A stretch of 52,476 nucleotides of DNA from Candidatus Woesearchaeota archaeon (GCA_964457785.1 CAYWEX010000001.1:1-52476); one strand, 5' to 3'; positions 13,279 to 28,073 are shown, counted from the stretch's first letter. Translations and numbers: made by a program. Notes: generated by a model not told the origin, from the sequence alone.

Positions 13279-13362
13279 CCCCTTTATAAATTTCACTGGA
13301 CAAATTCACTGGACATTTCGGGGACCGGCCTAGCGCTTATAAATAAAATCGTCTTATTCTTG
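13279..13362 (-). repeat. 84-bp perfect inverted repeat, right copy
   Basis: Exact reverse complement of 8491-8574; abuts the ATG of the LAGLIDADG gene. Confidence 0.95.
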
Positions 13363-14088
13363 ATGATGAAATATAAAACTATTAATAAAGAAGAACTGTT
13401 GTCTTATTTTTCTATAAATCAAAAAAATAAATTATTTGAATTAAATCTCTCTAAATTAACAAAACCAATTTTCATAAATTTACCGTTTATTTTAAATGAA
13501 GAAGTTTCTTCTTTAATGGGTTTAATGCCTGATGGTAGTTTAATAAAAGATCTAATGAGAGTATTTTTCACCCAGAAAAAAGATCCGCGAAAAATAGAAC
13601 TCTTTAATGATTTAATAATTAAGATATTTTCAACAAAGATTAAATTATTTAGAAAAGAAAATTCCAAAGGCAAACAAATCTATGTAAATTCAAAAACTTT
13701 GGCTTGGTTTTTGTATTATATCCTTAAACTTCCTAAATCAGATGAACAAATGAGAATACCTGGTTGGATTTTTGAATCACCAAAAAGTGTAAAAATAGCT
13801 TATCTTCAACAAGCATTCGATATGGAAGGTACAATTTTAAAAAAACTTACTGAAATAAGATTTGTAAGTGGAGATGAACTTTTCGCTAAAGACATATATA
13901 GTTTATTAAATAGTTTAGAAATAAAATCTCATCTTACATATGCCCCAAGATTTAAACAGCCTAACGGGCAATACAGAGTTTCTATTTACAGAAGAGAAAA
14001 TTTTGAGAAATTTAAGGAAATAAGTTTTAGAATTCCATTCTTAGAAAATAGATTTAATTTATTATTACAAAAATACGAAATTTTATAA
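13363..14088 (+). CDS. Free-standing LAGLIDADG-family endonuclease-like protein
   Basis: Two motifs (LMGLMPDGSL and YLQQAFDMEGTI) plus IPGWIF; no intein splicing termini. Confidence 0.85.
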   Translation: MMKYKTINKEELLSYFSINQKNKLFELNLSKLTKPIFINLPFILNEEVSSLMGLMPDGSLIKDLMRVFFTQKKDPRKIELFNDLIIKIFSTKIKLFRKENSKGKQIYVNSKTLAWFLYYILKLPKSDEQMRIPGWIFESPKSVKIAYLQQAFDMEGTILKKLTEIRFVSGDELFAKDIYSLLNSLEIKSHLTYAPRFKQPNGQYRVSIYRRENFEKFKEISFRIPFLENRFNLLLQKYEIL

Positions 14089-16478: not shown

Positions 16479-19400
16479 GTGAGTTTAACTGAGAAGAATC
16501 TTTCTGAAATAGAGTTTGAAAAAATAGCTAATGATGATTTAGAATTAATGTTCAATCACAAAAGCAAAGTCACCAAGATTGTTCCTCCAGATTATATCAA
16601 AAACTATAAACAGTTATTGTTCTATTTAAGAGATTTATTAAACCAAGGAAAACTGCCAATGCATCCAAGCAACAACTACTTGGGTGAGAATAAATTAGCA
16701 CATGACATTTACAAAAGCAAATATTATCTAAAAAATTTAAAAGATGAATTAATAGAGAAAAAACCCGAGGAAACTTTTGCACGACTGGCTGCTTTCTTGG
16801 CTGCTGTTGAAACAACAAAAGAAAAACAGGAAGAATGTGCAGTAAAATTCTATAAAGATTTAGTTGAAGGACATTTCCTGCCTGGTGGAAGAGTAATAGC
16901 TGGAGCTGGAGATTTATACAGGCTAAAAACTTTAGGAAATTGTTTTGTTTCTATGATTGAAGACGATAATATAGAAAGCATATACAAAGCAGCATATGAA
17001 TGTGCTAGAACCTATTCATATGGCGGTGGAATTGGTGTAGACATGTCAAGCTTAAGACCTAGAGAAGCTTTAGTTCATAATGCAGCAAATCATTCTACAG
17101 GAGCAGTTTCTTTTATGGAAATTTATTCTTTAACTACTGGATTAATTGGACAGAGCGGGAGAAGAGGAGCTTTAATGCTCACTTTAGATGTAAAACATCC
17201 AGACATTTTCCATTTTGTGGATGTAAAAAGAATTCCCAACTGGGTAACAAGACAAATTACAGACCAATGCAAATGGTCTAATTTATTCAATGAAAGACAA
17301 TTGCATGAAATAGAAAGACAAGTTAGAGAGAATACACAAGTAAGATTTGCAAACATAAGCATGAAAGTTACTGATGAATTCATGAGTGCTGTAGAAGAAC
17401 AAACGAAATTTGGAAAAAATAAATTACTTGTCTACAAAAGATTTAAACAAGATGAACCTGAGGAAACAAGACAAGGATATATTCATTACTCATTTGGTAT
17501 TCCTTCAAAAGATTTAGAAAACTATGAATTTTTAGAAAAATTTGATTCTGTTTATGAATTAAATAATTTCTTATTAACTCAAAAAAAAGAAATAAATGAA
17601 GAAGACTTAAAAAATACAAGTTTGAGAAATATTTTTGGAGACTTTATATTAAAGTCAGATAGTTATGATCTAGCAATACATTATTCTGGAGACTTTTTAT
17701 TATATTTTAATTCTGACCAGACAAAAGAAGTAAAGAAATTAGTCAAGGCAAAAGAATTATGGGATAAATTTGTTGCTTCTAATTACAAGACAGCTGAACC
17801 AGGATTAATTTTCTGGAGCAGAATGGTAAAATACAGCCCTTCAAATTACGTTGGAAGACCTATAATAACAACTAATCCCTGCATAACTGGCGATTCTTTA
17901 GTTTCTACTGATAAAGGTTTAGAAAGAATAGAAGATTTAGCTGGAAAAGAAGTTGAGATAGCAACTGACAACAGAGTTCCTATTGAAGTTTTGAACAATA
18001 AAGGCGAATTAATGTTAATGGAACAAAAAGATGGAATTACTTTTAATAGATCCCCCAGAGTCTGGTGTTCTGGAATAAAACCAACTTACAGGCTTAAAAC
18101 TAAAAAAGGCTACGAAATTACAGCAACAGCAGACCACAAAATTATGACTAATAATGGTTTTAAGGAATTATCAAGACTAATAAAAGAAGATAAAATTCTT
18201 ATCCAGAAAGGAGAAGGTAAATTTAATACAAATTACGATCTTAATTTTGATATTAATGTTGAACCTAAAAATGGCCACTTTTATCCATTTAATTTTCCAA
18301 CACAATGGTCTAAAGAATTAGGACAAATTTTAGGGTGGACAGTTGGAGACGGATTTGTTGTTGATGATAAATTAGAAATGGTATTTGCTAATGATGAATT
18401 AGAAATTATGAATAAATTCAAAATATTTATGGACAAAGTTTATGGTGAGAGAGAAGGATCAATAGTAGACAAAGATTCAACAAAGCATTTACTTTATAAC
18501 AGCATTTTTGTAGCTGAATTTATGAGAAAATTGGGAATAAAAAGCGTAGATGCTGAATTTAAAACTGTTCCGCAAGCTATTTTTACTGCACCAAAAGAAG
18601 CAGTTATTGGTTTTTTACAAGGATTATTTTCTGCAGACGGCACCATAGGTATAGATGAAGAAAAAGGAAATCGATATATAAGATTAACTTCAAAATCTAA
18701 AGAATTATTAAAGGAGGTTCAAAAGATTTTATTAAATCTTGGAATGATTTCAACAATATATGATAGAGAAAGAGATCCAGAAGTAAAATTCTTTTATTTT
18801 ACAGCTAAAGGGGAATATAGAGAATATGAATGTGACGGCAAATTATGGGAATTACAATTAAGCAAGAAAAGTGCACGAAAGTTTTTAGAAGAAATAGGCT
18901 TTTTAGGAACTAAACATCAAGAAAAAACTAAAATATTTTTAAGCCACAGGCAATACAAAGACAATTTTTTTGACAATTTAGTTTCAATAGAGTATGATGG
19001 AGTAAGAGAAATTTACGATTTATCTGAACCGCATACACATTCTTTTATTGCAAACGGAATTGTAATCCATAATTGCGGCGAAATAAATTTAGAGGATGGC
19101 GGGGCGTGCAATTTATCAGCGATGAATTTGTCAAGATTTGTTGATGAAGGTTATACTGAGAATGCCAAAATTAACTGGGAATTATTAAAAGAAAGTGTTA
19201 CTAATGTTACAAGATTTTTAGACAATACAATTACATGGAATATGTTCATGAATCCTTTGGAGAAACAAAGAATAGCAACTTCTGAAACAAGAAGACTTGG
19301 ACTGGGAGTGATGGGGATTGCTGATATGCTAAATCAATTGAGTATTGGATATGATTCTGATGAAGGTTTAGAATTAATTGGAAAGGTAATGAAATTTATT

Positions 19401-20330
19401 GCAAATACTGCTTACAAAGCTTCATCTTATTTAGCTTTGGAAAAGGAGCCATCTCCTTTATTTAATTATGAAGCTTATTCAAAATGCCCATTTTTCCAAG
19501 AATCTATTGACCAAGATGTAAAAGATTTAATAAGAAAAAATGGATTGAGAAATATTGCTATCTTAACTATTGCTCCAACAGGAACAATATCGAATGTTGT
19601 TCTAGGATTTAAAAATAAAGAAAAATATTATGTTGGTGTAAGTTCTGGAGTAGAACCTATTTTTGCTTTATATTATCAAAGAAGATCTGAGACTTTAAAC
19701 AAAGAAGAAAGCTCTAAATTTTATAATGTATTTCATCCAACTATACAGGCTTATTTAGATTTAAAAAACTTGAATGAAAAAGCACAAGATATAACTAATT
19801 TAGAAGAATTAAGGAAAGTATTGCCTACAAGTTTTTTTAGAACATCTCATTTTATCAAAGCAGATAAAAGAGTTGAAATTCAGGGAATCTGCCAGAAATA
19901 TATTGACCACAGCATTTCAAGCACAGTGAATTTGCCTGAAAGCATCAAACCTGATATGGTTTCAGATATTTATTTTGATGCATGGAAAAAAGGATTAAAA
20001 GGAATTACAATATACAGAGATGGATCCAGATATCCTATTTTAAGTGTTGCCCAAGAACAAACAGAATTCCAAGAAATTAAGAAGAAAACATTTAAAGTTT
20101 ATACTAACAGCGAAGAGCTTTTATTAAAAGGAGATGAGGTATTTGTTTTAGAAAATGGAACATTAAGCACTGCTTACCATTCTATAAAAGAAAATCATCC
20201 AGTAAAAATAGAAGAAATTAATTTTGATACTGGAGAAACTGTTATTTCTAATTTTATAGAAAAAAGTACAGATAAAAATACCTGTGAAATTAAAATAGAA
20301 GACGGCAAAGTAATAAAGACTTGTGAATAA
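16479..20330 (+). CDS. nrdJ: Class II (AdoCbl-dependent) ribonucleotide reductase with intein; no ATP cone
   Basis: PGGR, LGNCFV, GRRGA, NP[intein]CGE, ACNL, APTGT, KGITIYRDGSR and a C-terminal Cys pair; GGGGTGA RBS. Confidence 0.95.
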   Translation: MSLTEKNLSEIEFEKIANDDLELMFNHKSKVTKIVPPDYIKNYKQLLFYLRDLLNQGKLPMHPSNNYLGENKLAHDIYKSKYYLKNLKDELIEKKPEETFARLAAFLAAVETTKEKQEECAVKFYKDLVEGHFLPGGRVIAGAGDLYRLKTLGNCFVSMIEDDNIESIYKAAYECARTYSYGGGIGVDMSSLRPREALVHNAANHSTGAVSFMEIYSLTTGLIGQSGRRGALMLTLDVKHPDIFHFVDVKRIPNWVTRQITDQCKWSNLFNERQLHEIERQVRENTQVRFANISMKVTDEFMSAVEEQTKFGKNKLLVYKRFKQDEPEETRQGYIHYSFGIPSKDLENYEFLEKFDSVYELNNFLLTQKKEINEEDLKNTSLRNIFGDFILKSDSYDLAIHYSGDFLLYFNSDQTKEVKKLVKAKELWDKFVASNYKTAEPGLIFWSRMVKYSPSNYVGRPIITTNPCITGDSLVSTDKGLERIEDLAGKEVEIATDNRVPIEVLNNKGELMLMEQKDGITFNRSPRVWCSGIKPTYRLKTKKGYEITATADHKIMTNNGFKELSRLIKEDKILIQKGEGKFNTNYDLNFDINVEPKNGHFYPFNFPTQWSKELGQILGWTVGDGFVVDDKLEMVFANDELEIMNKFKIFMDKVYGEREGSIVDKDSTKHLLYNSIFVAEFMRKLGIKSVDAEFKTVPQAIFTAPKEAVIGFLQGLFSADGTIGIDEEKGNRYIRLTSKSKELLKEVQKILLNLGMISTIYDRERDPEVKFFYFTAKGEYREYECDGKLWELQLSKKSARKFLEEIGFLGTKHQEKTKIFLSHRQYKDNFFDNLVSIEYDGVREIYDLSEPHTHSFIANGIVIHNCGEINLEDGGACNLSAMNLSRFVDEGYTENAKINWELLKESVTNVTRFLDNTITWNMFMNPLEKQRIATSETRRLGLGVMGIADMLNQLSIGYDSDEGLELIGKVMKFIANTAYKASSYLALEKEPSPLFNYEAYSKCPFFQESIDQDVKDLIRKNGLRNIAILTIAPTGTISNVVLGFKNKEKYYVGVSSGVEPIFALYYQRRSETLNKEESSKFYNVFHPTIQAYLDLKNLNEKAQDITNLEELRKVLPTSFFRTSHFIKADKRVEIQGICQKYIDHSISSTVNLPESIKPDMVSDIYFDAWKKGLKGITIYRDGSRYPILSVAQEQTEFQEIKKKTFKVYTNSEELLLKGDEVFVLENGTLSTAYHSIKENHPVKIEEINFDTGETVISNFIEKSTDKNTCEIKIEDGKVIKTCE
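17880..19073 (+). mobile_element. Intein with LAGLIDADG homing endonuclease (398 aa) at the NP|CGE active site
   Basis: Starts CITGDSLV; block B TADHKI; GWTVGDG and GLFSADG motifs; ends IVIHN before the extein Cys. Confidence 0.95.
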
Positions 20331-20410
20331 GAACCTTGATGCTTATAATCTCCTGAAATTTTGCGAGAAAACAGAAATATTTTAAACTAATTCTTTTTTA
20401 ATTTTCAGTT

Positions 20411-21094
20411 ATGAAAGTACTACATACTGGGCGAGTTATTGAAGTAGAACCTTTTTCTTCAGATTATTTAAATGAGGCTTTAGGAGTTTGTAAACTTAGA
20501 AAACATAGGGCGCTTACAATGCCTGAAATTGTTGATATTAAAATAGAAAATCCTTTTAATACTGATTTGTGGCGAGATTTATATATCAGCACTAGCATGA
20601 AAGCTATTGGGCTTAGCAGGCAAGGCAAAAAAAGAATAGTTTACTCTCATTTGAAAGATAATTATTTTTCAAGTCCAGGCAATATTCTGGAAGCAATTGA
20701 CAAGGGATTAAAAAAAGGTGCAGGAATAATACTTAATTTAGATTTTTACAGACTGATTGAGTTAGATGGATTAACTGATGAAAAAGGAAACAGGTTAGTA
20801 TGGGTTTTAGATTATGATAATAGGAGAGGAGTGCCTAAATCTTTTACTATTGAAGATGCTTTAGATGATCCTGAAACAATTCCTTTTTTAGGTGGGGGAG
20901 AGAGAGCTATTCATTACTTACAAATGCATGGAGAAATGTATGACAATAAAATTTTGTTAGACCACAGCAATGAGTTTAATGGTGAAAATATAGGCTGGTT
21001 GCTTTATTTGGGGAATTTTTTGATAAAGGGACTATATGGAAATTATCCTTTGAATTCCAGCGGGAATTTTTTAGGAACTCCTGAAGAAAATTAA
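20411..21094 (+). CDS. Hypothetical protein
   Basis: 227-aa ORF with upstream TATA; no family recognised. Confidence 0.75.
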   Translation: MKVLHTGRVIEVEPFSSDYLNEALGVCKLRKHRALTMPEIVDIKIENPFNTDLWRDLYISTSMKAIGLSRQGKKRIVYSHLKDNYFSSPGNILEAIDKGLKKGAGIILNLDFYRLIELDGLTDEKGNRLVWVLDYDNRRGVPKSFTIEDALDDPETIPFLGGGERAIHYLQMHGEMYDNKILLDHSNEFNGENIGWLLYLGNFLIKGLYGNYPLNSSGNFLGTPEEN

Positions 21095-21097
21095 TTT

Positions 21098-21628
21098 TTA
21101 AGCATTACCATAACTACCAGCTACTGGGCTGCATGTTGTATCCATATTTGTTAATATTTTTGAGCATCTAGCTTCAAATTCATTACGATTATAACGACAT
21201 CTATCATATTTTTCATTTACTGAAGTGTAACAAGGATTATAAGTCGATTCAGTACCAACTACAGCTAAACACTGCTGATATTCATAATCTGCTTGATTTG
21301 TACAAATACTATATTCTGTTTGGGCATTTGTCATACAGTCATCGTATTTTTTTCTTTCTGCAGCTCTGCATTCTTCTTCATTCGAAGTTGGAGTCGGTTC
21401 TGCTGTTGATGATGATGTGTCTGTTGCTGGTGTTGGTTCTGCTGTTGATGATGATGTGTCTGTTGCTGGTGTTGGTTCTGCTGTTGATGATGATGTAGTT
21501 GGTGTATCATAAGTTCCTGTATCGTAGGTTTGGAAACCTGCTAAATGCTTTCCAGATAAATTTGAAAATAATAAAAAAGAAAATAGAATTGTGATTGTCA
21601 ATAGAACTAATACTTCCTCTTTTTGCAT
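21098..21628 (-). CDS. Secreted or membrane-anchored protein with Ser/Thr repeats and a Cys-rich C-terminus
   Basis: N-terminal TM, TSSSTAEPTPATD repeats, and cysteines spaced roughly every 11 aa. Confidence 0.75.
   Translation of the reverse strand: MQKEEVLVLLTITILFSFLLFSNLSGKHLAGFQTYDTGTYDTPTTSSSTAEPTPATDTSSSTAEPTPATDTSSSTAEPTPTSNEEECRAAERKKYDDCMTNAQTEYSICTNQADYEYQQCLAVVGTESTYNPCYTSVNEKYDRCRYNRNEFEARCSKILTNMDTTCSPVAGSYGNA
21396..21496. repeat. 39-bp coding tandem repeat (~2.6 copies)
   Basis: GGTTCTGCTGTTGATGATGATGTGTCTGTTGCTGGTGTT repeated. Confidence 0.9.
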
Positions 21629-21721
21629 ATAAACTGATAGAACTTTTCTTTTTAAAAACTTTATTACTATCATTAGAAACTCTTATAAATGTATTTGGAG
21701 TAAGTAGCTTTTTGGGGGAAT

Positions 21722-23752
21722 ATGGTTACAAAAGTCAGGAAACGAGATGGAAGAATAGTTCTTTTTAACAAAGACAAGATAGTTGATGCCATATTCAAGG
21801 CTATGAGTTCTGTCAATAAAGTTGACCAGGAATTAGCTGAAAAACTAGCAAATTTAATAGAAGAAGAACTTGAAAATAAGTTCAATAAGAAAGACACTCC
21901 ACATGTTGAGGATATACAGGATTTAATAGAAAAAGCTTTGATAACAGAAGGATTGGCTGAAGTTGCCAAATCTTTTATTTTATATAGATATAAAAGAACT
22001 GTGATAAGGGAAGCCAAGGAATCCTTAATCGGTAAAATAGATGATTCTGACTTAAGCATAACATCATTAAAAATTGCTGAAGCAAAGTATTTGCTAAAAG
22101 ATGAAAACGGCAATATTATAGAAACTCCAAACCAGATGTTCCAAAGAGCTGCAAAATGTATGGCTAATGTTGAAAAAAAATACAACAAAGACGAGCAATA
22201 TACTAAAGATTTAGAGAAGAAATTTTTTGAAATAATTTCCAATTTAGAGTTTTTACCATCTGGAAGAATTTTGGCTCATGCTGGAACTGATTCAACTTCT
22301 TTATCAAGTTCAATTGTTATTCCAATTGAAGACAGCCTGGAAGATATTTTTACTTCTTTATTGCATGCAGTCACTTTACAGAAAAAAACAGTTGGAACTG
22401 GATTTAATTTTTCCAAAATAAGGCCGAGAGGAAGTAGAACTTCTGAAAATTATGGAAAAGCTGTCGGGCCTGTTTCTTTTATGCATATTTTCAACAGCGC
22501 GAGCGAATTAATAAAATGCAGAGGAAACAGAAAAAGTGCCAATATGGCTATTTTAAGGTGTGATCATCCCAACATAATTGATTTTATTGGGGCTAAAGAA
22601 AACCAGAATTACTTGAATAATTTCAATATTTCAGTTGGACTTACTGATAAATTTTTGGAAGCGGTAAGAAAAAATGATGATTATGAATTAATAGATCCTT
22701 CTACAGAAAAATCTGTTTCTAAATTAAATGCAAGAAAAATATTTGACATGATTATTTCCACTGCATGGAAAAATGGAGAGCCTGGTTTAATATTTTTAGA
22801 CAATATTAATAGAAAAAATCCAACTCCAGAATTGGGAAAATTAGAAATTACAAGCAGCTGCGCTGAAATGGCTTTATATCCTTATGAAGGGGCTTTTTTA
22901 GGATCGATAAATCTGGAGAAATTTGTCAGAGAGAATGAAATAAATTATGAAAAACTAAAAGAAACAATCAAGTTAGCTGTAAGATTTTTAGACAATGCTG
23001 TTGATGTTTCTAATTATTCAATAGAAAAAGTAAATGAGATAACAAAGTCTAACAGAAAAATAGGACTAGGGATAATGGGTTTTGCAGATTTATTATATGA
23101 AATGCAAGTACCTTATAACTCTGAAAGAGCCTTGGAAATTGCTGAGGAATTAATCAAGTTTGTACAAAAAACAGCAAGAGAAGAATCTGAAAATATAGGA
23201 ATAGAAAAAGGAAATTTTCCAAATTACAAGAAAAGTATTTTTTACAAGAAAACACCAATGAGAAATGCGACTGTCACAGCAATTGCTCCTTCTGGAAGTA
23301 TAAGCATTTTAGCTGAAACAAGCAACAGCATTGAACCTAATTTTGCTATTGGTTACATGAGAAATGTTCTAGGAAATACGCAAATCATGTTTGTAAACAA
23401 GCACTTTGAGAAAATAGCAAAAGAAAAAGGATTTTATTCACCTTCATTAATAAAAACTATTGTTGAACAAGGATCATTGAACGGTATTGAAGAAATTCCA
23501 GAAAAAATAAAAAGGATATTTGTTGTTTCACATCAGATTACACCTGAATGGCATGTCAAGATGCAAGCAATATTTCAAAAACATATTGACAATGCAATTT
23601 CAAAAACAATTAATTTCCCTTTTACAGCAACTCTACAAGATGTAGAAAAGGGATATTTTAAAGCTCATGAATTGGGATGCAAGGGAATTACAATATACAG
23701 AGATGGAAGCAGGATTGAGCAGGTTATAAATTTAAAAGAACCTAACAAATAA
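21722..23752 (+). CDS. NrdJ-like protein with N-terminal ATP cone and a degenerate active site
   Basis: VRKRDGR...VEDIQD ATP cone and an NrdJ core, but LSSSI, TSSCAE and EGAFL replace LSxCF, TNPCGE and xxCNL; no C-terminal Cys pair. Confidence 0.9.
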   Translation: MVTKVRKRDGRIVLFNKDKIVDAIFKAMSSVNKVDQELAEKLANLIEEELENKFNKKDTPHVEDIQDLIEKALITEGLAEVAKSFILYRYKRTVIREAKESLIGKIDDSDLSITSLKIAEAKYLLKDENGNIIETPNQMFQRAAKCMANVEKKYNKDEQYTKDLEKKFFEIISNLEFLPSGRILAHAGTDSTSLSSSIVIPIEDSLEDIFTSLLHAVTLQKKTVGTGFNFSKIRPRGSRTSENYGKAVGPVSFMHIFNSASELIKCRGNRKSANMAILRCDHPNIIDFIGAKENQNYLNNFNISVGLTDKFLEAVRKNDDYELIDPSTEKSVSKLNARKIFDMIISTAWKNGEPGLIFLDNINRKNPTPELGKLEITSSCAEMALYPYEGAFLGSINLEKFVRENEINYEKLKETIKLAVRFLDNAVDVSNYSIEKVNEITKSNRKIGLGIMGFADLLYEMQVPYNSERALEIAEELIKFVQKTAREESENIGIEKGNFPNYKKSIFYKKTPMRNATVTAIAPSGSISILAETSNSIEPNFAIGYMRNVLGNTQIMFVNKHFEKIAKEKGFYSPSLIKTIVEQGSLNGIEEIPEKIKRIFVVSHQITPEWHVKMQAIFQKHIDNAISKTINFPFTATLQDVEKGYFKAHELGCKGITIYRDGSRIEQVINLKEPNK

Positions 23753-23811: not shown

Positions 23812-24438
23812 ATGACAGCAGGAGATAAATTAGGACTTGTACATGTTTATACTGGAGATGGCAAAGGCAAGACTTCTGCTGCAATGGGATTATCTTTGAG
23901 AGCCATTGGCCAGGGATTAAAGGTTTTTATTATACAATTTATGAAGGGCGGGGCTTATACTGGAGAATACATTAGTGCTAAAAATTTTCTGCCTAATAAT
24001 GAATTTCTGCAATATGGAAGAGGATGCATTAAGGAAAAAAAACAACTTAAATTAATTGGTTTTGATCAAGGAGTACATTATTTTGATCATGTAAGAGAAG
24101 ATATTGAATGTGGGCCGTGCAGATATTGTTTTTTGAATGATGAAGAGCAAAGAAGATTTGTAAGATTAGCATTTGACAAGGCAAAAGAAGTAACTTCTAA
24201 AGATGAATACAGCTTAGTTGTTTTAGACGAAATTAATGTAGCTGTAAAATATGGGTTTGTTGATGTAAATGAATTAATTGAGTTGATTAAAAATAAAAAT
24301 AAAACTACTGAATTAATTATTACTGGAAGAGATGTACATCCAAAAATAGTTGAAATGGCTGATTTGGTAACTGAAATGAAACTAGTAAAACATTATTATG
24401 AAAAAGGAGTTTCAGCAAGAAGAGGGATAGAATATTGA
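23812..24438 (+). CDS. cobO: Cob(I)alamin adenosyltransferase (CobO/CobA/BtuR type)
   Basis: VYTGDGKGKTSAA, IQFMKG, VLDEI, IITGR, ADLVTEM and RRGIEY motifs. Confidence 0.95.
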   Translation: MTAGDKLGLVHVYTGDGKGKTSAAMGLSLRAIGQGLKVFIIQFMKGGAYTGEYISAKNFLPNNEFLQYGRGCIKEKKQLKLIGFDQGVHYFDHVREDIECGPCRYCFLNDEEQRRFVRLAFDKAKEVTSKDEYSLVVLDEINVAVKYGFVDVNELIELIKNKNKTTELIITGRDVHPKIVEMADLVTEMKLVKHYYEKGVSARRGIEY

Positions 24439-24476: not shown

Positions 24477-24890
24477 ATGAAATTTAACAAATTAGCTAAA
24501 ATAGTTTATTTGGCAGGAGCTCTTAGTTTATCTGGATGTTCTTTAAATCAAAGCCCAAAACCCTATGTAAAGTTACCTCAGACTATAACTATTTCTCCAG
24601 ATACTAATATTTGTTTTGATATAGTTGATGAGAGCAGAGAAAGAGATATTGTTTCTTGTGAAGCTTATTTAATAGAAAAAAGAACTGGTATAGAAACTAA
24701 ACTATATTTAAGTGCTTCAGCTATAGATTTAGAATTAAGTGGTGTTGCTTTAGCTCATTGGGAAGTTACTGATCAATATAATCAAATTCCAAGGGGAGAT
24801 TGTACATTTATTCTTGAAATGAGAGACAAGAAAGGAAAAAGAGGAGAATATAAATTACCAGTTGTTATTAAAGAAGAAAATAAGAAATAA
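24477..24890 (+). CDS. Putative lipoprotein
   Basis: Signal peptide with LSGC lipobox; shares a domain with the next gene. Confidence 0.75.
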   Translation: MKFNKLAKIVYLAGALSLSGCSLNQSPKPYVKLPQTITISPDTNICFDIVDESRERDIVSCEAYLIEKRTGIETKLYLSASAIDLELSGVALAHWEVTDQYNQIPRGDCTFILEMRDKKGKRGEYKLPVVIKEENKK

Positions 24891-24928: not shown

Positions 24929-26356
24929 GTGGTGAAATTTGACAAGAATACTAGAGTTTTATTGTTTGGATTTATTATATTATTAATTTCTGGAATTAGC
25001 TTTAGTTTGTTTAATTTTACTATAACTGGTAAACAAGGCGAGGATTTATCTGAATTAAATAATCCAAAGGGTAACGGATATTTGTACTTTAAATATTTCC
25101 CTGAAAGAAATGAAGAAGATAGGATAGAGGGGCCTTTTGAATTTAAAGAAAATGATGGTTTTTCTCCAGTTATTAATATAGAATTAAATATTGAAAATAT
25201 AAAAACTAAAATAAAAAATTATTTTAATGAAATAAGAAATCAAGATATTTCTCCACAACCAAGTATAGACTTGCCAGACAAACTGTTTACTTTATCTCTA
25301 AGCCCTGAAGAAAATATTGAATTTACTATAATTGATGATAGTAGGGAAAGAGATATTAAAAAATCAGAATTAGTTTTAAAAAAAGAAGACAAGGAAGATA
25401 TTAAATTAAATACTAAATTTGAAAAAACTGATTTAGAAATTTCTGGATTTACAAAGGTTTTTTGGAATTCAATAGAAGATTATAAAATAATTCAAGAAGA
25501 TGGTTTTGGAAAATATGAACTCTCTCTAATATTGACTGATAAAACAGGTCAGAAAGGAGAGAAAAATATTCCAATTGATCTGAAGGATGGAAAGAGAGAA
25601 AGAGTTGAAACACCTGATCCCGAAGGAGATAAAGGTCAAAAAGTTGGAATTGAAGTCAGAGAAGATATACCAAACCCACCACCTTTTGTTGAGGATGATA
25701 AAGATAAACCCACAATAAAAAAGGATGGGTGTAAGATGACATTAAAATTCGCGGGTAAAGTAGATGAAAAATTAAAAACACAGAAAGGAACAAACAAGGA
25801 TGAATTAGGAGAATATCTTTATCCTTATGGAAAAAGTTATTTTCTGAAGTATTTTTTTGAAATTCATGCGAATGCAGATCCAAAAGAATATTTAGAGGGA
25901 CAATGGAGCCAGAGCTTTACTTTTTATGAATATTATGATGATGGTTATGAGAAAAGAGGACAAAAAGAAACTGGATCAGGCTTTAATAAAAAAGACTATC
26001 ATCCAGAAGATTTTACATCTGATCATTATCATCAAAAGAAGACAGACTTATTGGGAACTTTTATAAAAGAATATAAAGAAGCAGAAAAAGTAATTCACTG
26101 GACAGGATATGGAGAAGAAAAAATAGATCCTGAAATGATAAACTTAAATAAAGATATTAAGTTCATTAGCGCTGTTTGGAAAGAAGATTATAGTGATTAC
26201 TGTTTTTGTGAATTTGATTTAAGTTTATCTGCTAAAAATGAAAAACCAGATAAATTTAGCAATTACAAAAAAGCTGGAACAAAGGCTAGTCCAGATTGGA
26301 AAATAAAAACCAGTATTGAGTATATTAAGGGAGTTAAATGCGATACTGGATCTTAA
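24929..26356 (+). CDS. Membrane-anchored hypothetical protein
   Basis: N-terminal TM; contains the IxDxSRERDI...DLExSG...W domain also seen in 24477-24890. Confidence 0.75.
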   Translation: MVKFDKNTRVLLFGFIILLISGISFSLFNFTITGKQGEDLSELNNPKGNGYLYFKYFPERNEEDRIEGPFEFKENDGFSPVINIELNIENIKTKIKNYFNEIRNQDISPQPSIDLPDKLFTLSLSPEENIEFTIIDDSRERDIKKSELVLKKEDKEDIKLNTKFEKTDLEISGFTKVFWNSIEDYKIIQEDGFGKYELSLILTDKTGQKGEKNIPIDLKDGKRERVETPDPEGDKGQKVGIEVREDIPNPPPFVEDDKDKPTIKKDGCKMTLKFAGKVDEKLKTQKGTNKDELGEYLYPYGKSYFLKYFFEIHANADPKEYLEGQWSQSFTFYEYYDDGYEKRGQKETGSGFNKKDYHPEDFTSDHYHQKKTDLLGTFIKEYKEAEKVIHWTGYGEEKIDPEMINLNKDIKFISAVWKEDYSDYCFCEFDLSLSAKNEKPDKFSNYKKAGTKASPDWKIKTSIEYIKGVKCDTGS

Positions 26357-26462
26357 CTATCTAAAAAGTCTTAATTTAATTATTTTTTATTACTATACTA
26401 AATTAGCTAAAAATTTATATATAAAAACAGAGATAAGATTTTTGAATGGGGGTGAATTAGTT

Positions 26463-28073
26463 TTGTTTCAAGCTCTTTACAAAGGATCCAGGTTAATTTA
26501 TGGAAATCCTGAAAGCAATATAGGCATTGTAACTTTATGGAGCAAGCCAAAAGAACTTGCTTCTAGAATTGACAATACCAAATTTTGTGTAATGGGTCCT
26601 TTATACAGTTCTGAAAGAGGACTGGATTTATTAATAAGAAATTTACTGGCTAACCCGCAAATTTCTGTTCTTTTATTAACTGGGGTGGATTTTTCCAAAT
26701 CAGGAATTGTTTTAAAAGATTTTTTTGAAAAAGGTTTTTTCAAAGGCAAGACAGACACAACTGAAAAACCCTGCTGGAGAATAAACAGCCAATATGAAGG
26801 ATATATTGATTTAGATATTCCAGAAGAAAATTTGAATTTAATTAGAGAAAGTGTCTTATTTGTTAAAGTTCCTGATTTAACTAATTTTGATTTTTCTACT
26901 TTACTTATGCCTGAGAAAAAAAGAGAGAAGATGATTTTTGTTAAGAAAGAAGAAGAAGTTAAAAAATATGTAGGAGAGTATATTGGATATGTAGTAAGAG
27001 GAAGAACAGTTGCAGAAGCATGGCTTAAAGTTTTAGATACTATCTTAAAATTTGGAAAAGAATCTGGAACACATTATGATGACATGCAAAAAGAAATTGT
27101 AAATTTAATGTCTATTATATCTGATGAAGATCCAAATAATTTGAATGTGCCTGATTTTTTTCCTTCTGATAAGCAGCATGTAAATGAATATATTCCGAGA
27201 ATGACAAGAGATTTACCTGGAGGAACTACAAAAAATGAGTATACTTATGGAAGCAGAATGAGAAGTTGGTTTGGAATAGACCAGGTAAAAGGAGCTATAG
27301 AAAAATTAACTAGAGAACCTGTTTCAAGAGCTGTTGTGATAAGTTTGTGGGATACTGTAAAAGATTTAACATTAGGAGGAAGTCCGTGCTTGAATCATAT
27401 ATGGATGAGAATAAATGACAATAAATTATTTATGACATGTATCTTCAGAAGCCATGATATGTTTGAAGGATATCCTGAAAATGCTTTAGCTTTAAGATGT
27501 TTACAAGAAGAAATAAGAAAACAAGTTGAAGAGGGATTAAAGGCTAAAGGAGAAAATACTGAATTAAAATTAGGCAATTTAGTTATTTTATCACAGTCAG
27601 CACATATTTATGATGATTCATGGGAAAGGTGCCAGAAAATTGTTGAAATGTACTTGCCCAGATATTCTGGTTTATTATCTGAATTTGATCCAAGAGGAAA
27701 TTTAATTATTAATATAGAAGATGAAGAAATTATTGTTGAACATACGTCAGCTACAAAAGAAACTTTAGGAATCTATAAAGCAAAATCTGCTGAGCAGATG
27801 AGGGATTTATTAGTGAAAGAAAACATAATTTCATTAGTTCCACATGCTTTAGATATTGGACTAGAATTAATGAAGGCGGAAATAGCAATTAAATTAAACT
27901 TACATTATTTACAGGACAATAAACTTGAATTAAAACCAATTATAGTTGAAGAAAAACCCAAAGAAGAGGCAAAACCTATTGTTGAAAATGCTATAAGCAG
28001 AGAAGATAAAAATTTATTAAAGGCAAGCAAAGATCAATTAACTAACATACTAAATAATTTGAAAACAAGATAA
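26463..28073 (+). CDS. thyA: Thymidylate synthase fusion (MtrA-like N-domain, ThyA, DUF4346-like C-domain)
   Basis: YTYGSR, SRAV, PCL, RSHD..N and SAHIY motifs; N-terminal IVTLWS...NLLANPQI; C-terminal DPRGN...HALDIGLELMKAE. TTG start at 26463 follows a GGGGGTGA RBS. Confidence 0.88.
   Translation: MFQALYKGSRLIYGNPESNIGIVTLWSKPKELASRIDNTKFCVMGPLYSSERGLDLLIRNLLANPQISVLLLTGVDFSKSGIVLKDFFEKGFFKGKTDTTEKPCWRINSQYEGYIDLDIPEENLNLIRESVLFVKVPDLTNFDFSTLLMPEKKREKMIFVKKEEEVKKYVGEYIGYVVRGRTVAEAWLKVLDTILKFGKESGTHYDDMQKEIVNLMSIISDEDPNNLNVPDFFPSDKQHVNEYIPRMTRDLPGGTTKNEYTYGSRMRSWFGIDQVKGAIEKLTREPVSRAVVISLWDTVKDLTLGGSPCLNHIWMRINDNKLFMTCIFRSHDMFEGYPENALALRCLQEEIRKQVEEGLKAKGENTELKLGNLVILSQSAHIYDDSWERCQKIVEMYLPRYSGLLSEFDPRGNLIINIEDEEIIVEHTSATKETLGIYKAKSAEQMRDLLVKENIISLVPHALDIGLELMKAEIAIKLNLHYLQDNKLELKPIIVEEKPKEEAKPIVENAISREDKNLLKASKDQLTNILNNLKTR

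What the first reader, a model, noticed from the sequence alone, without database searches (positions are those of the whole stretch)
16479..23752. Complementary pair of class II RNRs: a catalytic enzyme without an ATP cone and an ATP-cone pseudo-reductase
Seen: NrdJ-1 keeps all catalytic residues (GNCF, NPCGE, ACNL, C-terminal Cys pair) but has no ATP cone. NrdJ-2 (21722-23752) is an intact 676-aa ORF with an ATP cone. In it the first redox Cys is Ser (LSSSI, about residue 197), the Asn is Ser (TSSCAE), the second redox Cys is Ala (EGAFL, about 391), RRGA is RKSA, and the Cys tail is absent. The thiyl-radical Cys (about 380), the Glu and the C-terminal KGITIYRDGSR motif are retained. Known: ribonucleotide reduction needs the redox Cys pair (E. 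coli C225/C462) and the N437/C439/E441 loop; inactive R1 homologs exist in betaherpesviruses. Inference: NrdJ-2 is either a regulatory subunit supplying ATP/dATP control in trans in a heteromeric class II RNR, or a B12 thiyl-radical enzyme doing non-reductive chemistry. The loss is focused on the active site and the frame is intact, which argues for selection rather than decay.
Basis: partly seen in the sequence, partly recalled or inferred. Interest (0 to 1): 0.85.

Follow-up and report, generated by a model that had tools for sequence, protein, structure and literature searches.

The report
Conserved dead B12 reductase paralog beside live one
A tiny groundwater archaeon keeps, next to its working vitamin-B12 ribonucleotide reductase, a second full-length copy that has lost the residues needed to make DNA building blocks but is still strongly preserved by selection, so it probably serves as a nucleotide-sensing partner or has another B12-linked job.

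Summary
NrdJ-2 (21722-23752) is an intact 676-aa class II RNR homolog with an ATP cone. It lacks both redox cysteines (S197, A391), the loop Asn (S378) and any C-terminal Cys tail, but keeps the thiyl Cys (C380) and Glu (E382). NrdJ-1 (16479-20330) has every catalytic motif and no cone.

NrdJ-2 is not decaying. dN/dS is 0.05-0.12, equal to NrdJ-1 and CobA, and one ortholog hosts an intein.

It belongs to a wider set of tail-less, cone-bearing NrdJ paralogs ("B") in related DPANN archaea. All 23 genomes examined also hold a second NrdJ ("A"). A lies directly upstream in 15. Catalytic residues were lost repeatedly inside B: Asn is kept in 4 of 36 rows and Cys1 in 14 of 36, yet the thiyl Cys is kept in 36 of 36.

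The apparent PNSP-to-PSGR "loss" is the published NTP-type phosphate-loop motif, and NrdJ-1 carries the same type.

Best reading (about 0.45): a non-catalytic, nucleotide-sensing partner of the catalytic enzyme. A complex prediction gave only weak support. The invariant thiyl Cys is unexplained and keeps a B12-radical or cofactor-handling role open. I found no published description.

The parts
16479..17879 (+). NrdJ-1 N-extein (aa 1-467). No ATP cone. Holds PGGR, the NTP-type apical loop (aa 135-138), GNCF (first redox Cys, C155) and loop 2 GQSGRRGALM. Ends ...TTNP.
   Evidence: motif meaning from Loderer 2021 passages
17880..19073 (+). LAGLIDADG intein in NrdJ-1 (aa 468-865, 398 aa). It begins CITGDSLV and ends VIHN, just before the extein thiyl Cys.
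   Evidence: Pfam LAGLIDADG_3 and Intein_splicing; boundaries; orthologs in G011 and G013 lack it and are 885/881-aa proteins
19074..20330 (+). NrdJ-1 C-extein. Holds CGE (thiyl Cys and Glu), GGACNL (second redox Cys), KGITIYRDGSR, and the C-terminal C-x12-C tail (CEIKIEDGKVIKTCE).
20411..21673 (.). Variable spacer between the two nrdJ genes. It holds a 227-aa ORF (+, 20411-21094, no family) and a 191-aa low-complexity ORF (-, 21098-21673). The spacer is not conserved: G011 has a Fic gene here, G013 a PIN gene, and G012 has no gene.
21722..23752 (+). NrdJ-2 ('B' type), 676 aa. ATP cone 21731-22000; PSGR loop 22256-22267; S197 (Cys1 position) 22310-22312; finger loop TSSCAE 22850-22867 with thiyl C380; A391 (Cys2 position) 22892-22894. 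No Cys tail.
23812..24438 (+). CobA/BtuR-type ATP:corrinoid adenosyltransferase, 59 bp downstream of NrdJ-2. This position is conserved in G010-G013 and in other families.
   Evidence: Pfam PF02572, 195.7 bits; TIGR00708, 170.3 bits against cut-off 167.75; synteny

Best explanation
NrdJ-2 can no longer reduce ribonucleotides, but it is maintained as a functional protein. It is most likely a non-catalytic, nucleotide-sensing partner (alpha-prime) of the catalytic NrdJ-1.

Shown:
- It is an RNR-fold protein with an ATP cone.
- It lacks the redox Cys pair, the loop Asn and the electron-shuttling Cys tail.
- It is under purifying selection as strong as that on NrdJ-1.
- It belongs to a larger set of tail-less, cone-bearing NrdJ paralogs in related DPANN archaea. 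In every genome examined these sit with, and usually right behind, a catalytically complete NrdJ.

Inferred:
- NrdJ-2 pairs with NrdJ-1 through the usual RNR dimer interface (or a higher oligomer).
- It binds ATP/dATP in its cone and nucleotides in its retained effector site and NTP-type phosphate pocket, and so tunes the activity or specificity of the single live active site.
- NrdJ-1 supplies catalysis and the thioredoxin-facing tail.
- CobA downstream makes the adenosylcobalamin cofactor.
For: 1. Dead as a reductase. S197, S378 and A391 replace Cys1, Asn and Cys2 in the alignment to T. maritima NrdJ, and there is no tail. No substitute Cys is conserved.

2. Selection.
- Nei-Gojobori dN/dS for NrdJ-2 is 0.052-0.120 over 6 pairs of 4 genomes. 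NrdJ-1 gives 0.051-0.081 and CobA 0.035-0.104.
- The G012 ortholog hosts a 307-aa HNH intein with intact C...HN|C ends.
- Remodelled pocket positions are invariant in 12 of 20 cases within the clade, against 355 of 676 positions overall. They are neither drifting nor unusually fixed.

3. What is kept. Of 212 columns that are at least 95% conserved in 95 canonical NrdJs, 132 are unchanged in all 10 clade members. Across 35 B-type rows, cone columns are the best kept (mean 0.90). The worst kept are the loop 1 region (0.58), the finger loop (0.63) and loop 2 (0.66).

4. Co-occurrence. In the window's family (16 genomes), the NrdJ-1 type (at least 73% identity) and the NrdJ-2 type (at least 72%) are found in the same 5 genomes and in no other.

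5. The same architecture occurs elsewhere.
- All 23 B-bearing genomes examined have a second NrdJ match. Its catalytic motifs were verified in 14.
- A lies upstream on the same strand within 2.5 kb in 15. It is not adjacent in 5, and contig ends hide the answer in 3.
- A lacks a cone in 14 of the 17 cases where its N-terminus was seen.
- All B rows have a cone and no tail Cys.

6. Repeated loss. In 36 B rows against 62 other rows: Cys1 is kept in 14 vs 61, Asn in 4 vs 59, Glu in 24 vs 61 and Cys2 in 19 vs 62.

7. Precedent, from passages of Loderer 2017. Tail-less NrdJd copies occur only in genomes that also have a tailed copy. A mix of an active-site mutant and a tail mutant regains activity, so NrdJ subunits cooperate in trans.

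8. Complex prediction of NrdJ-1 aa 41-467 with NrdJ-2 aa 105-676.
- ipSAE was 0.32 (runs 0.32, 0.35, 0.31). The best of 3 controls was 0.00. The verdict was 'weak support'.
- That mark was reached by 58 of 80 solved complexes and 2 of 110 mismatched pairs. At 0.60 or under, only 7 of the 80 solved complexes reached it, as did both of the mismatched pairs that passed.
- The runs share at least 61% of contacts, and partner pLDDT is at least 84.
- RNR homodimers are solved, so the pass may be memory of them.
Against: - B pairs with different kinds of A. The A is a long (~885 aa) PGGR type here and in G350 and G244, and a short type in families f28 and f52. One conserved heterodimer interface is therefore less obvious.
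- In 4 of 7 f52 genomes no A lies within about 7 kb of B.
- In one genus (G219, G222, G223), A has its own ATP cone, tail and full active site. 'Cone in trans' therefore cannot be B's universal role.
- Cone-less single NrdJs are common in the same order, so a cone-less enzyme does not need B.
- The thiyl Cys is kept in 36 of 36 B rows, and the beta-J/C-terminal motifs are kept (0.86). A mere scaffold would not need these.
- The loop 1 region, which by my recollection helps form the effector site serving the neighbouring subunit, is the least conserved part of B.
- 'B never occurs without A' is partly trivial, since a cell with a dead RNR needs a live one.
- The complex test used half of NrdJ-1's barrel because of the 1000-residue limit, and it could not be compared with homodimers.
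- There are no binding or expression data.
Confidence: 0.45

Rival explanations
1. NrdJ-2 works on its own as an adenosylcobalamin-binding protein that still uses the finger-loop Cys. It could be a thiyl-radical enzyme with non-reductive chemistry on a nucleoside triphosphate. It could instead be a cofactor-handling protein that holds or presents (adenosyl)cobalamin between CobA and NrdJ-1.
For: - The thiyl Cys is kept in 36 of 36 B rows, while Asn (4), Cys1 (14), Cys2 (19) and Glu (24) are lost repeatedly.
- The C-terminal ISKTIN...KGITIYRDGS region is well kept (0.86). Its beta-J strand lines the adenosyl pocket, according to a passage of Burnim 2022.
- Both phosphate loops are kept: the NTP-type PSGR apical loop and APSGSIS.
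- CobA lies directly downstream of B in 12 genomes of several families.
Against: - Apart from the Cys, no catalytic constellation is shared among B lineages. The finger loop reads SSCAE here, SPCAE in f28, DPCGD in f52, DSCAS in G350 and GPCAD in P0039. The Cys1 position is S, D, I or T. This is the pattern of a relaxed site rather than a new active site.
- f52 B genes have no CobA neighbour in 0 of 7 cases.
- Canonical single NrdJs also sit next to CobA in 7 of 11 published-genome loci seen. The neighbourhood is therefore inherited, not specific to B.
- AdoCbl binding was not testable here.
Confidence: 0.25
2. NrdJ-2 is a free-standing nucleotide sensor or regulator. It forms a homodimer or oligomer, using the ATP cone and the old effector and substrate sites to read NTP/dNTP levels, and it acts on something other than NrdJ-1.
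For: - The cone is the best conserved part of B.
- B persists with different A types and sometimes far from A.
- A passage of Burnim 2022 (Protein Sci) says class II cones seem to be under selection for a cryptic function.
Against: - A lies directly upstream of B in 15 of the 20 genomes where the flanks could be read.
- NrdJ-1 type and NrdJ-2 type co-occur perfectly within family f1 (5 of 16 genomes).
- No DNA-binding or other output domain is present in the protein.
Confidence: 0.15
3. NrdJ-2 is still a ribonucleotide reductase that uses an unconventional reductant or active-site chemistry.
For: - The thiyl Cys, the Glu and the phosphate loops are kept.
- Class III RNRs show that reductant systems vary (section 2.5 of Burnim 2022, Protein Sci).
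- Some B members (G211, G212) keep every active-site residue and lack only the tail.
Against: - Both bottom-face Cys and the Asn are absent in NrdJ-2, and no replacement Cys is conserved.
- By recollection (papers not seen here), the E. coli C225, C462 and N437 variants are inactive or self-destructive.
- The residues at these positions differ between B lineages.
Confidence: 0.05
4. NrdJ-2 is a relic of the resident RNR, on its way to being lost after NrdJ-1 took over.
For: - B keeps the ancestral position next to CobA and the ancestral cone.
- Catalytic residues were lost stepwise: the tail first, then Asn, then the cysteines.
Against: - dN/dS is 0.05-0.12 at dS of at least 1, equal to the essential neighbours.
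- Frames are intact in all B genes seen.
- B-type genes persist across several families and at least two orders, with identities down to about 45%.
- The f28 B pair G222/G218 has dN/dS 0.048.
Confidence: 0.03

Closest known systems
Dimeric class II RNR (NrdJ) of Thermotoga maritima (PDB 1xje, 1xjk and others) and the ATP-cone NrdJs of other archaea
   Same: Same fold and domain order: cone, all-alpha domain, ten-stranded barrel. E is 2e-113 to 1xjk, and identity is about 50% to archaeal NrdJs. The thiyl Cys, Glu, APxGSIS, ISKTIN and KGITIYRDGS are kept.
   Different: Cys1, Asn and Cys2 are replaced, loop 2 is altered (KQGGxRRG -> KCRGNRKS), and there is no C-terminal Cys tail or zinc-ribbon. 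The apical phosphate loop is PSGR instead of PNSP.
Second, tail-less NrdJd copies in Frankia and some Alphaproteobacteria, and subunit cross-talk in NrdJd (Loderer et al. 2017, PMC5704485; passages seen)
   Same: A tail-less NrdJ is found only together with a tailed one. Experiments show that one NrdJ subunit's tail can serve another subunit's active site.
   Different: In the passages I read, those copies are not described as lacking active-site residues. The paper's supplementary tables could not be opened. Here the tail-less copy has also lost catalysis, always bears an ATP cone, and is archaeal.
ATP cone supplied by a different subunit: cone fused to NrdB in some class I RNRs (Rozman Grinberg et al. 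2018, PMC5794259; only the search listing and the start of the abstract were seen)
   Same: Overall-activity control sits on a polypeptide other than the cone-less catalytic one.
   Different: There the carrier is the radical-generating beta subunit of class I. Here it would be a dead paralog of the catalytic subunit of class II. Regulation by NrdJ-2 is inferred, not shown.
Catalytically inactive R1 homologs of betaherpesviruses
   Same: A full-length RNR large-subunit fold is retained after loss of catalytic residues and is kept for another function.
   Different: Those are viral class I homologs with functions in host interaction. There is no ATP-cone logic and no paired live paralog in an operon.
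Genomes with several nrdJ genes of different phosphate specificity (Loderer et al. 2021, PMC8365446; abstract and passages seen)
   Same: Two nrdJ genes occur in one genome, and the apical loop motif can be read as NDP (PNSP) or NTP (P-A/S/G-G-R) type.
   Different: That paper reports that 69% of multi-nrdJ genomes combine the two types, and it treats the copies as enzymes. Here both copies carry the NTP-type motif and one copy is dead.

Membership tests
Class II RNR (NrdJ), as a sequence/fold family | Homology to the RNR barrel and N-terminal all-alpha domain, with NrdJ-specific models scoring above their cut-offs | tested here: met
   NrdJ-2: PF02867 396.2 bits and PF00317 69.5 bits. TIGR02504 scores 619.5 against cut-off 399.95, but NF006417 scores 773.5 against cut-off 961, which is below. 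E is 2e-113 to 1xjk.
Class II RNR (NrdJ), as a working reductase | [quoted passage not shown] | tested here: not met
   The positions are S197 and A391 in the alignment. Cys1 is Ser in all 11 clade members. Cys2 is Ala in 6 and Cys in 5.
Class II RNR (NrdJ), as a working reductase | Finger-loop motif N-P-C-x-E | tested here: not met
   The motif reads S-S-C-A-E, so Cys and Glu are present and Asn is absent. NPCxE is found in 3,175 of 3,347 class II sequences, according to Burnim 2022 (Protein Sci) section 2.5.
Class II RNR (NrdJ), as a working reductase | C-terminal Cys pair or Cys-rich domain that re-reduces the active site | tested here: not met
   The protein ends 12 residues after YRDGSR with no Cys. 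Loderer 2017 passages say the domain is present in 70% of NrdJs.
Class II RNR (NrdJ), as a working reductase | Binds adenosylcobalamin and forms the thiyl radical | not testable with these tools
   Only indirect evidence exists: C380 and the beta-J motif are kept, and CobA is adjacent.
Class II RNR (NrdJ), as a working reductase: NrdJ-1 | All of the above motifs | tested here: met
   C155, NP|CGE (after intein removal), C877 in GGACNL, and the C1269/C1282 tail are present. TIGR02504 scores 480 against cut-off 399.95. Activity itself was not tested.
ATP-cone domain | Match to the Pfam ATP-cone model above the gathering score | tested here: met
   NrdJ-2 aa 4-93 score 81.5 bits against 25.8. NrdJ-1 has none. 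Nucleotide binding itself was not tested.
NTP- versus NDP-type NrdJ (Loderer 2021) | Apical phosphate loop: P-(A/S/G)-G-R means NTP type, P-N-S-P means NDP type | tested here: met
   NrdJ-2 has PSGR (aa 179-182) and NrdJ-1 has PGGR (aa 135-138). The meaning of the motifs comes from passages of PMC8365446.
NF005401 'ribonucleotide reductase-like protein' (NCBIfam subfamily) | Score above the model's cut-off | tested here: not met
   NrdJ-2 scores 243.8 bits against a cut-off of 906.
Heteromeric RNR with a non-catalytic alpha-prime subunit (proposed, no known family) | Physical association of NrdJ-1 and NrdJ-2 | tested here: inconclusive
   The complex prediction gave ipSAE 0.32 against a best control of 0.00, 'weak support', possibly from memory of solved homodimers.

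The most novel reading that the evidence does not exclude
DPANN archaea have evolved, possibly more than once, an asymmetric class II RNR. In it a catalytically dead, ATP-cone-bearing paralog (alpha-prime) is an obligate partner of a live, often cone-less NrdJ. The dead protomer's former active site (thiyl Cys and NTP-type phosphate pocket kept) and its cone act as nucleotide or cofactor sensing sites. This would be the first pseudo-subunit architecture in class II RNRs and a new route to allosteric control.
Probability: 0.4. Interest if true: 0.85.

Novelty: new variant of a known kind. Interest (0 to 1): 0.72.

Why it matters
RNR is the only de novo route to DNA precursors, and its allostery is a textbook system. 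Class II enzymes are regarded as self-contained homodimers or monomers, and the role of their ATP cones is still unclear.

A conserved, selected, catalytically dead NrdJ paralog would be a natural experiment in dividing catalysis and regulation between paralogs. It always carries the cone, keeps the radical Cys and rides with a live NrdJ.

It also warns annotators. These genes are labelled 'vitamin B12-dependent ribonucleotide reductase' in public records (names), and they pass one equivalog model's cut-off. Metabolic reconstructions of DPANN genomes may therefore count a reductase that is not one.

The proteins are small and soluble-looking. The proposed functions are directly testable with standard RNR assays.

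Tried and rejected
- Decay was rejected by dN/dS and intact frames.
- Alternative active-site cysteines were rejected.
- My early reading that NSPT -> SGRI (aa 180-183) was a lost substrate-binding motif was rejected after reading Loderer 2021. It is the NTP-type loop, and the catalytic NrdJ-1 has it too.
- A class III RNR as a hidden second system: no PF13597 match in the own genome, which is 86% complete, so absence is not proven.
- Single origin of all B-type proteins is undecided.
  - Tree 1 (73 rows, trait columns included) gave one clade with SH-aLRT 98.
  - Tree 2 (98 rows, cone and trait columns removed, short search) split them into a 20-row clade (96), a 12-row clade (89) and four loose rows.
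  - The AU test did not reject one clade: p-AU 0.927, and the constrained tree was 93.67 log-likelihood units better than the short free search.
  - The group was named after seeing tree 1.
  - Thirteen of the 15 protein-id rows in the 36-row B group were chosen because their motifs looked odd, so the counts are partly circular. Two of those 15 are identical to genome-derived rows.
- Concordance of phosphate-loop type between A and B holds in f1, f28 and f52 but fails in G350 (A PGGR, B PNSP). It is not used as evidence.
- Expression: no RNA holder was listed. Four DNA runs of one groundwater study hold the stretch, and one may be its source.
- G403's tail-less protein has a canonical active site and no second NrdJ within 7 kb. 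I dropped it from the B set, although it was among the 35 rows.
- Rows from the genomes flagged as unpublished (G439 and G565, loci L097 and L098, both ordinary tailed NrdJs next to CobA) were seen. G510, G499 and G533 appear only as table rows.
- Literature: searches found no description of a cone-bearing NrdJ lacking the redox cysteines. This covers only the held library, and supplementary files (for example the tables of Loderer 2017 and 2021) were closed and may list such genes.

Full report
**The locus.** The window is about 30% G+C. It lies in an 802-kb, 19-contig genome that is 86% complete. Close protein relatives are labelled Nanoarchaeota or Woesearchaeota by their depositors. Four plus-strand genes matter here:
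- NrdJ-1 (16479-20330).
- NrdJ-2 (21722-23752).
- A CobA-type corrinoid adenosyltransferase (23812-24438).
- Further on, a thymidylate-synthase-like fusion (26316-28073).

These two are the only RNR barrels in the genome. No class III enzyme was found, with the completeness caveat.

**Checking the observation.** The alignment of NrdJ-2 to T. maritima NrdJ puts Ser at the first redox Cys (S197). It puts S-S-C-A-E where the enzyme has N-P-C-G-E, and Ala-Phe where it has Cys-Asn (A391, F392). Loop 2 reads KCRGNRKSA instead of KQGSRRRGA, and the chain ends without a Cys tail. The ATP cone is strong (81.5 bits).

NrdJ-1 has all the motifs but is interrupted by a 398-aa LAGLIDADG intein between NP and CGE.

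**Is it decaying?** No.
- Orthologs at 72-91% identity exist in four other genomes of the family.
- Pairwise dN/dS is 0.05-0.12 with dS of at least 1.05. This is indistinguishable from NrdJ-1 (0.05-0.08) and CobA (0.035-0.10). dS is near saturation for the more distant pairs, so those ratios are rough.
- One ortholog (G012, P0005) carries a 307-aa HNH intein with intact splice-junction residues after residue 279.
- Of 212 columns at least 95% conserved in 95 canonical relatives, 132 are unchanged in all ten clade members.
- The changes cluster at Cys1, loop 1 and loop 2, the finger loop and Cys2.
- Within the clade, these remodelled positions are as invariant as the average position: 12 of 20, against 355 of 676.

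**A wider family.**
- Among the 120 best hits of the word-indexed search there is a gap from 74% to 54% identity.
- Several more distant hits also have degenerate sites and no tail.
- Genome searches in the order (240 genomes), and then in a 401-genome sample drawn from the same phylum, found the same kind of protein in other families.
- I call it B: ATP cone present, no Cys after the beta-J motif.

The state of the active site in B varies by lineage:

| Lineage | Genomes | Cys1 | Finger loop | Cys2 |
|---|---|---|---|---|
| Family f28 | 9 | kept | SPCAE or NPCAE | kept |
| Family f52 | 7 | Ser or Ile | DPCGD | Gly or Ser |
| G244 | 1 | Ser | DPCGD | Val |
| G350 | 1 | Thr | DSCAS | Val |

Counts over 36 B rows and 62 other rows:

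| Residue | Kept in B (of 36) | Kept in others (of 62) |
|---|---|---|
| Cys1 | 14 | 61 |
| Asn | 4 | 59 |
| Glu | 24 | 61 |
| Cys2 | 19 | 62 |
| Thiyl Cys | 36 | 61 |

Caveat: I named the group after seeing the first tree. Thirteen of the 15 protein-id rows were picked for odd motifs, and two of the 15 duplicate genome-derived rows.

Whether B arose once is open.
- One tree gave a single clade (98).
- A second tree, without the trait columns, gave two supported clades plus loose rows.
- An AU test did not reject a single clade (p 0.927).

If the origins are separate, the parallel outcome (keep the cone, lose the tail, then lose catalytic residues) is the more striking result.

**The partner.**
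- All 23 B-bearing genomes examined have a second NrdJ match (A). I verified full catalytic motifs in 14 of them.
- A lies upstream of B on the same strand within 2.5 kb in 15 genomes: G000, G011, G012, G013, G218, G219, G221, G222, G223, G225, G270, G324, G396, G350 and G244.
- It is not adjacent in 5: G212 (about 7 kb away), G318, G309, G441 and G284.
- Contig ends hide the answer in 3: G010, G211 and G216.
- In the window's own family, the NrdJ-1 type and the NrdJ-2 type occur in the same 5 of 16 genomes and nowhere else.
- A lacks a cone in 14 of the 17 cases where its N-terminus was seen. The three exceptions (G219, G222, G223) have cone, tail and full site.

NrdJ-1 itself belongs to a populous 'long' NrdJ type.
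- Its 16 closest relatives (at least 73% identity) have no cone.
- Many relatives at 60-68% identity do have one.

CobA follows B in 12 genomes. It also follows ordinary single NrdJs in 7 of 11 published-genome loci seen. B therefore looks like the old resident gene and A like the later addition or duplicate.

In f28 an NrdR gene (zinc ribbon plus ATP cone) precedes the pair. The spacer between A and B in the window's genus is variable: it holds Fic, PIN, unknown ORFs, or nothing.

**What the literature adds.**
- Loderer 2017 (passages):
  - The Cys-rich C-terminal domain is needed for turnover with a physiological-type reductant.
  - Tail-less NrdJd copies occur only alongside a tailed copy.
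  - A tail mutant and an active-site mutant complement each other in mixtures.
  - NrdJ subunits can therefore share functions.
- Loderer 2021 (abstract and passages):
  - The apical phosphate loop decides substrate phosphorylation level. PNSP marks NDP reducers and P-(A/S/G)-G-R marks NTP reducers.
  - NrdJ-2 has PSGR and NrdJ-1 has PGGR.
  - What looked like another loss in NrdJ-2 is thus a well-formed NTP-type pocket.
  - The pairing of loop types is not universal: G350 has A with PGGR and B with PNSP.
- Burnim 2022 (section 2.5 and passages):
  - NPCxE occurs in 3,175 of 3,347 class II sequences.
  - Class II cones seem to be under selection for a cryptic function.
  - The exceptions to NPCxE are not discussed in what I read.

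I found no paper describing these proteins. Supplements were closed.

**Mechanism.** The best-supported reading is that NrdJ-2 is a non-catalytic partner of NrdJ-1. NrdJ-1 does the chemistry and carries the electron-shuttling tail. NrdJ-2 contributes the cone and nucleotide-binding sites.

By my recollection of the T. maritima structures (not checked here), D141, K158 and R171 bind the specificity effector. Their counterparts D204, K221 and R234 are present in NrdJ-2 in the alignment.

The single complex prediction allowed used NrdJ-1's N-extein (aa 41-467) and cone-less NrdJ-2. It gave ipSAE 0.32 against 0.00 for three controls, which the tool calls weak support and which may reflect memory of solved RNR homodimers.

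Against this reading:
- B's partners are of different types.
- Adjacency is incomplete in f52.
- One genus has self-sufficient A proteins.
- Cone-less single NrdJs are common.
- The thiyl Cys is invariant.

The last point, with the kept beta-J motif and the CobA neighbour, keeps alive a B12-linked role: a radical enzyme, or a cofactor-handling protein. However, the rest of the pocket differs too much between B lineages to look like a conserved new active site.

My odds:

| Reading | Probability |
|---|---|
| Partner or regulatory subunit | 0.45 |
| B12-radical or cofactor-handling protein acting alone | 0.25 |
| Free-standing nucleotide sensor | 0.15 |
| Unconventional reductase | 0.05 |
| Relic | 0.03 |

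The remainder is unassigned.

**Verdict.** This is a real, conserved feature and is not ordinary annotation noise. It is a new variant of a known kind: a catalytically dead RNR large-subunit homolog, with regulation possibly supplied in trans. Its function is unproven, but the tests are straightforward.

Noticed in passing
window 17880-19073: NrdJ-1 carries a 398-aa LAGLIDADG intein exactly before the thiyl Cys (NP|C). Orthologs in G011 and G013 lack it. Relatives P0271-P0273 and P0279 have it.
   Followed up: yes
G012 contig 8 (L058 4178-7198, minus strand; protein P0005): The ortholog of the dead NrdJ-2 hosts a 307-aa HNH-type intein after residue 279 (AILR|CDHPN). An intein is thus maintained in a pseudo-enzyme.
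   Followed up: partly
window 13360-14088 (+): A free-standing 242-aa ORF has a LAGLIDADG_3 domain (40.4 bits). It may be a homing endonuclease without an intein, lying about 2.4 kb upstream of nrdJ-1.
   Followed up: partly
G000 contig 2, L006 1462-1737 (-): A stand-alone 91-aa ATP-cone protein (39.3 bits) with no zinc ribbon or enzyme domain. It is the only other ATP cone in the genome.
   Followed up: partly
window 26316-28073 (+): A 585-aa protein combines an MtrA-like N-terminus (below the Pfam cut-off), a thymidylate-synthase core and a pterin-binding DUF4346 domain. In G012 and G013 its ortholog directly follows CobA, making a dNTP-synthesis cluster.
   Followed up: no
window 24477-24890 and 24929-26356 (+): Two neighbouring putative secreted or lipoproteins share a similar stretch (…DxSRERDI…) and look like paralogs. 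They are absent between CobA and the thymidylate-synthase-like gene in G012 and G013.
   Followed up: no
proteins P0121 (1600 aa) and P0122 (1351 aa): Each is a head-to-tail fusion of two complete NrdJ bodies, both with catalytic motifs. Only the second half carries the Cys-rich tail. These may be natural fused 'heterodimers' or merged gene calls.
   Followed up: partly
L059 3406-3870 (G222) and the equivalent ORFs in G219, G221, G223, G225: An NrdR-type repressor (Zn_ribbon_NrdR plus ATP cone) sits directly upstream of the nrdJ pair in these archaeal genomes. Pfam was run only on the G222 copy.
   Followed up: partly
proteins (e.g. P0313, P0317, P0324, P0325, P0330): Many 'long'-type NrdJ relatives of NrdJ-1 end after a ...PDGxLTTVYH motif with no Cys tail at all. 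Their active sites and partners were not examined.
   Followed up: no
L056 5272-6084 (G011) and L057 6295-6705 (G013): The gap between the two nrdJ genes holds a Fic-domain gene in G011 and a PIN-domain gene in G013. This points to repeated insertion of small accessory genes at this spot.
   Followed up: partly
L124 7123-9219 (G403): A cone-bearing NrdJ has a fully canonical active site but no Cys tail. It is followed by CobA, with no second NrdJ within 7 kb and only one strong match in the genome. It may be a tail-less enzyme working alone.
   Followed up: partly
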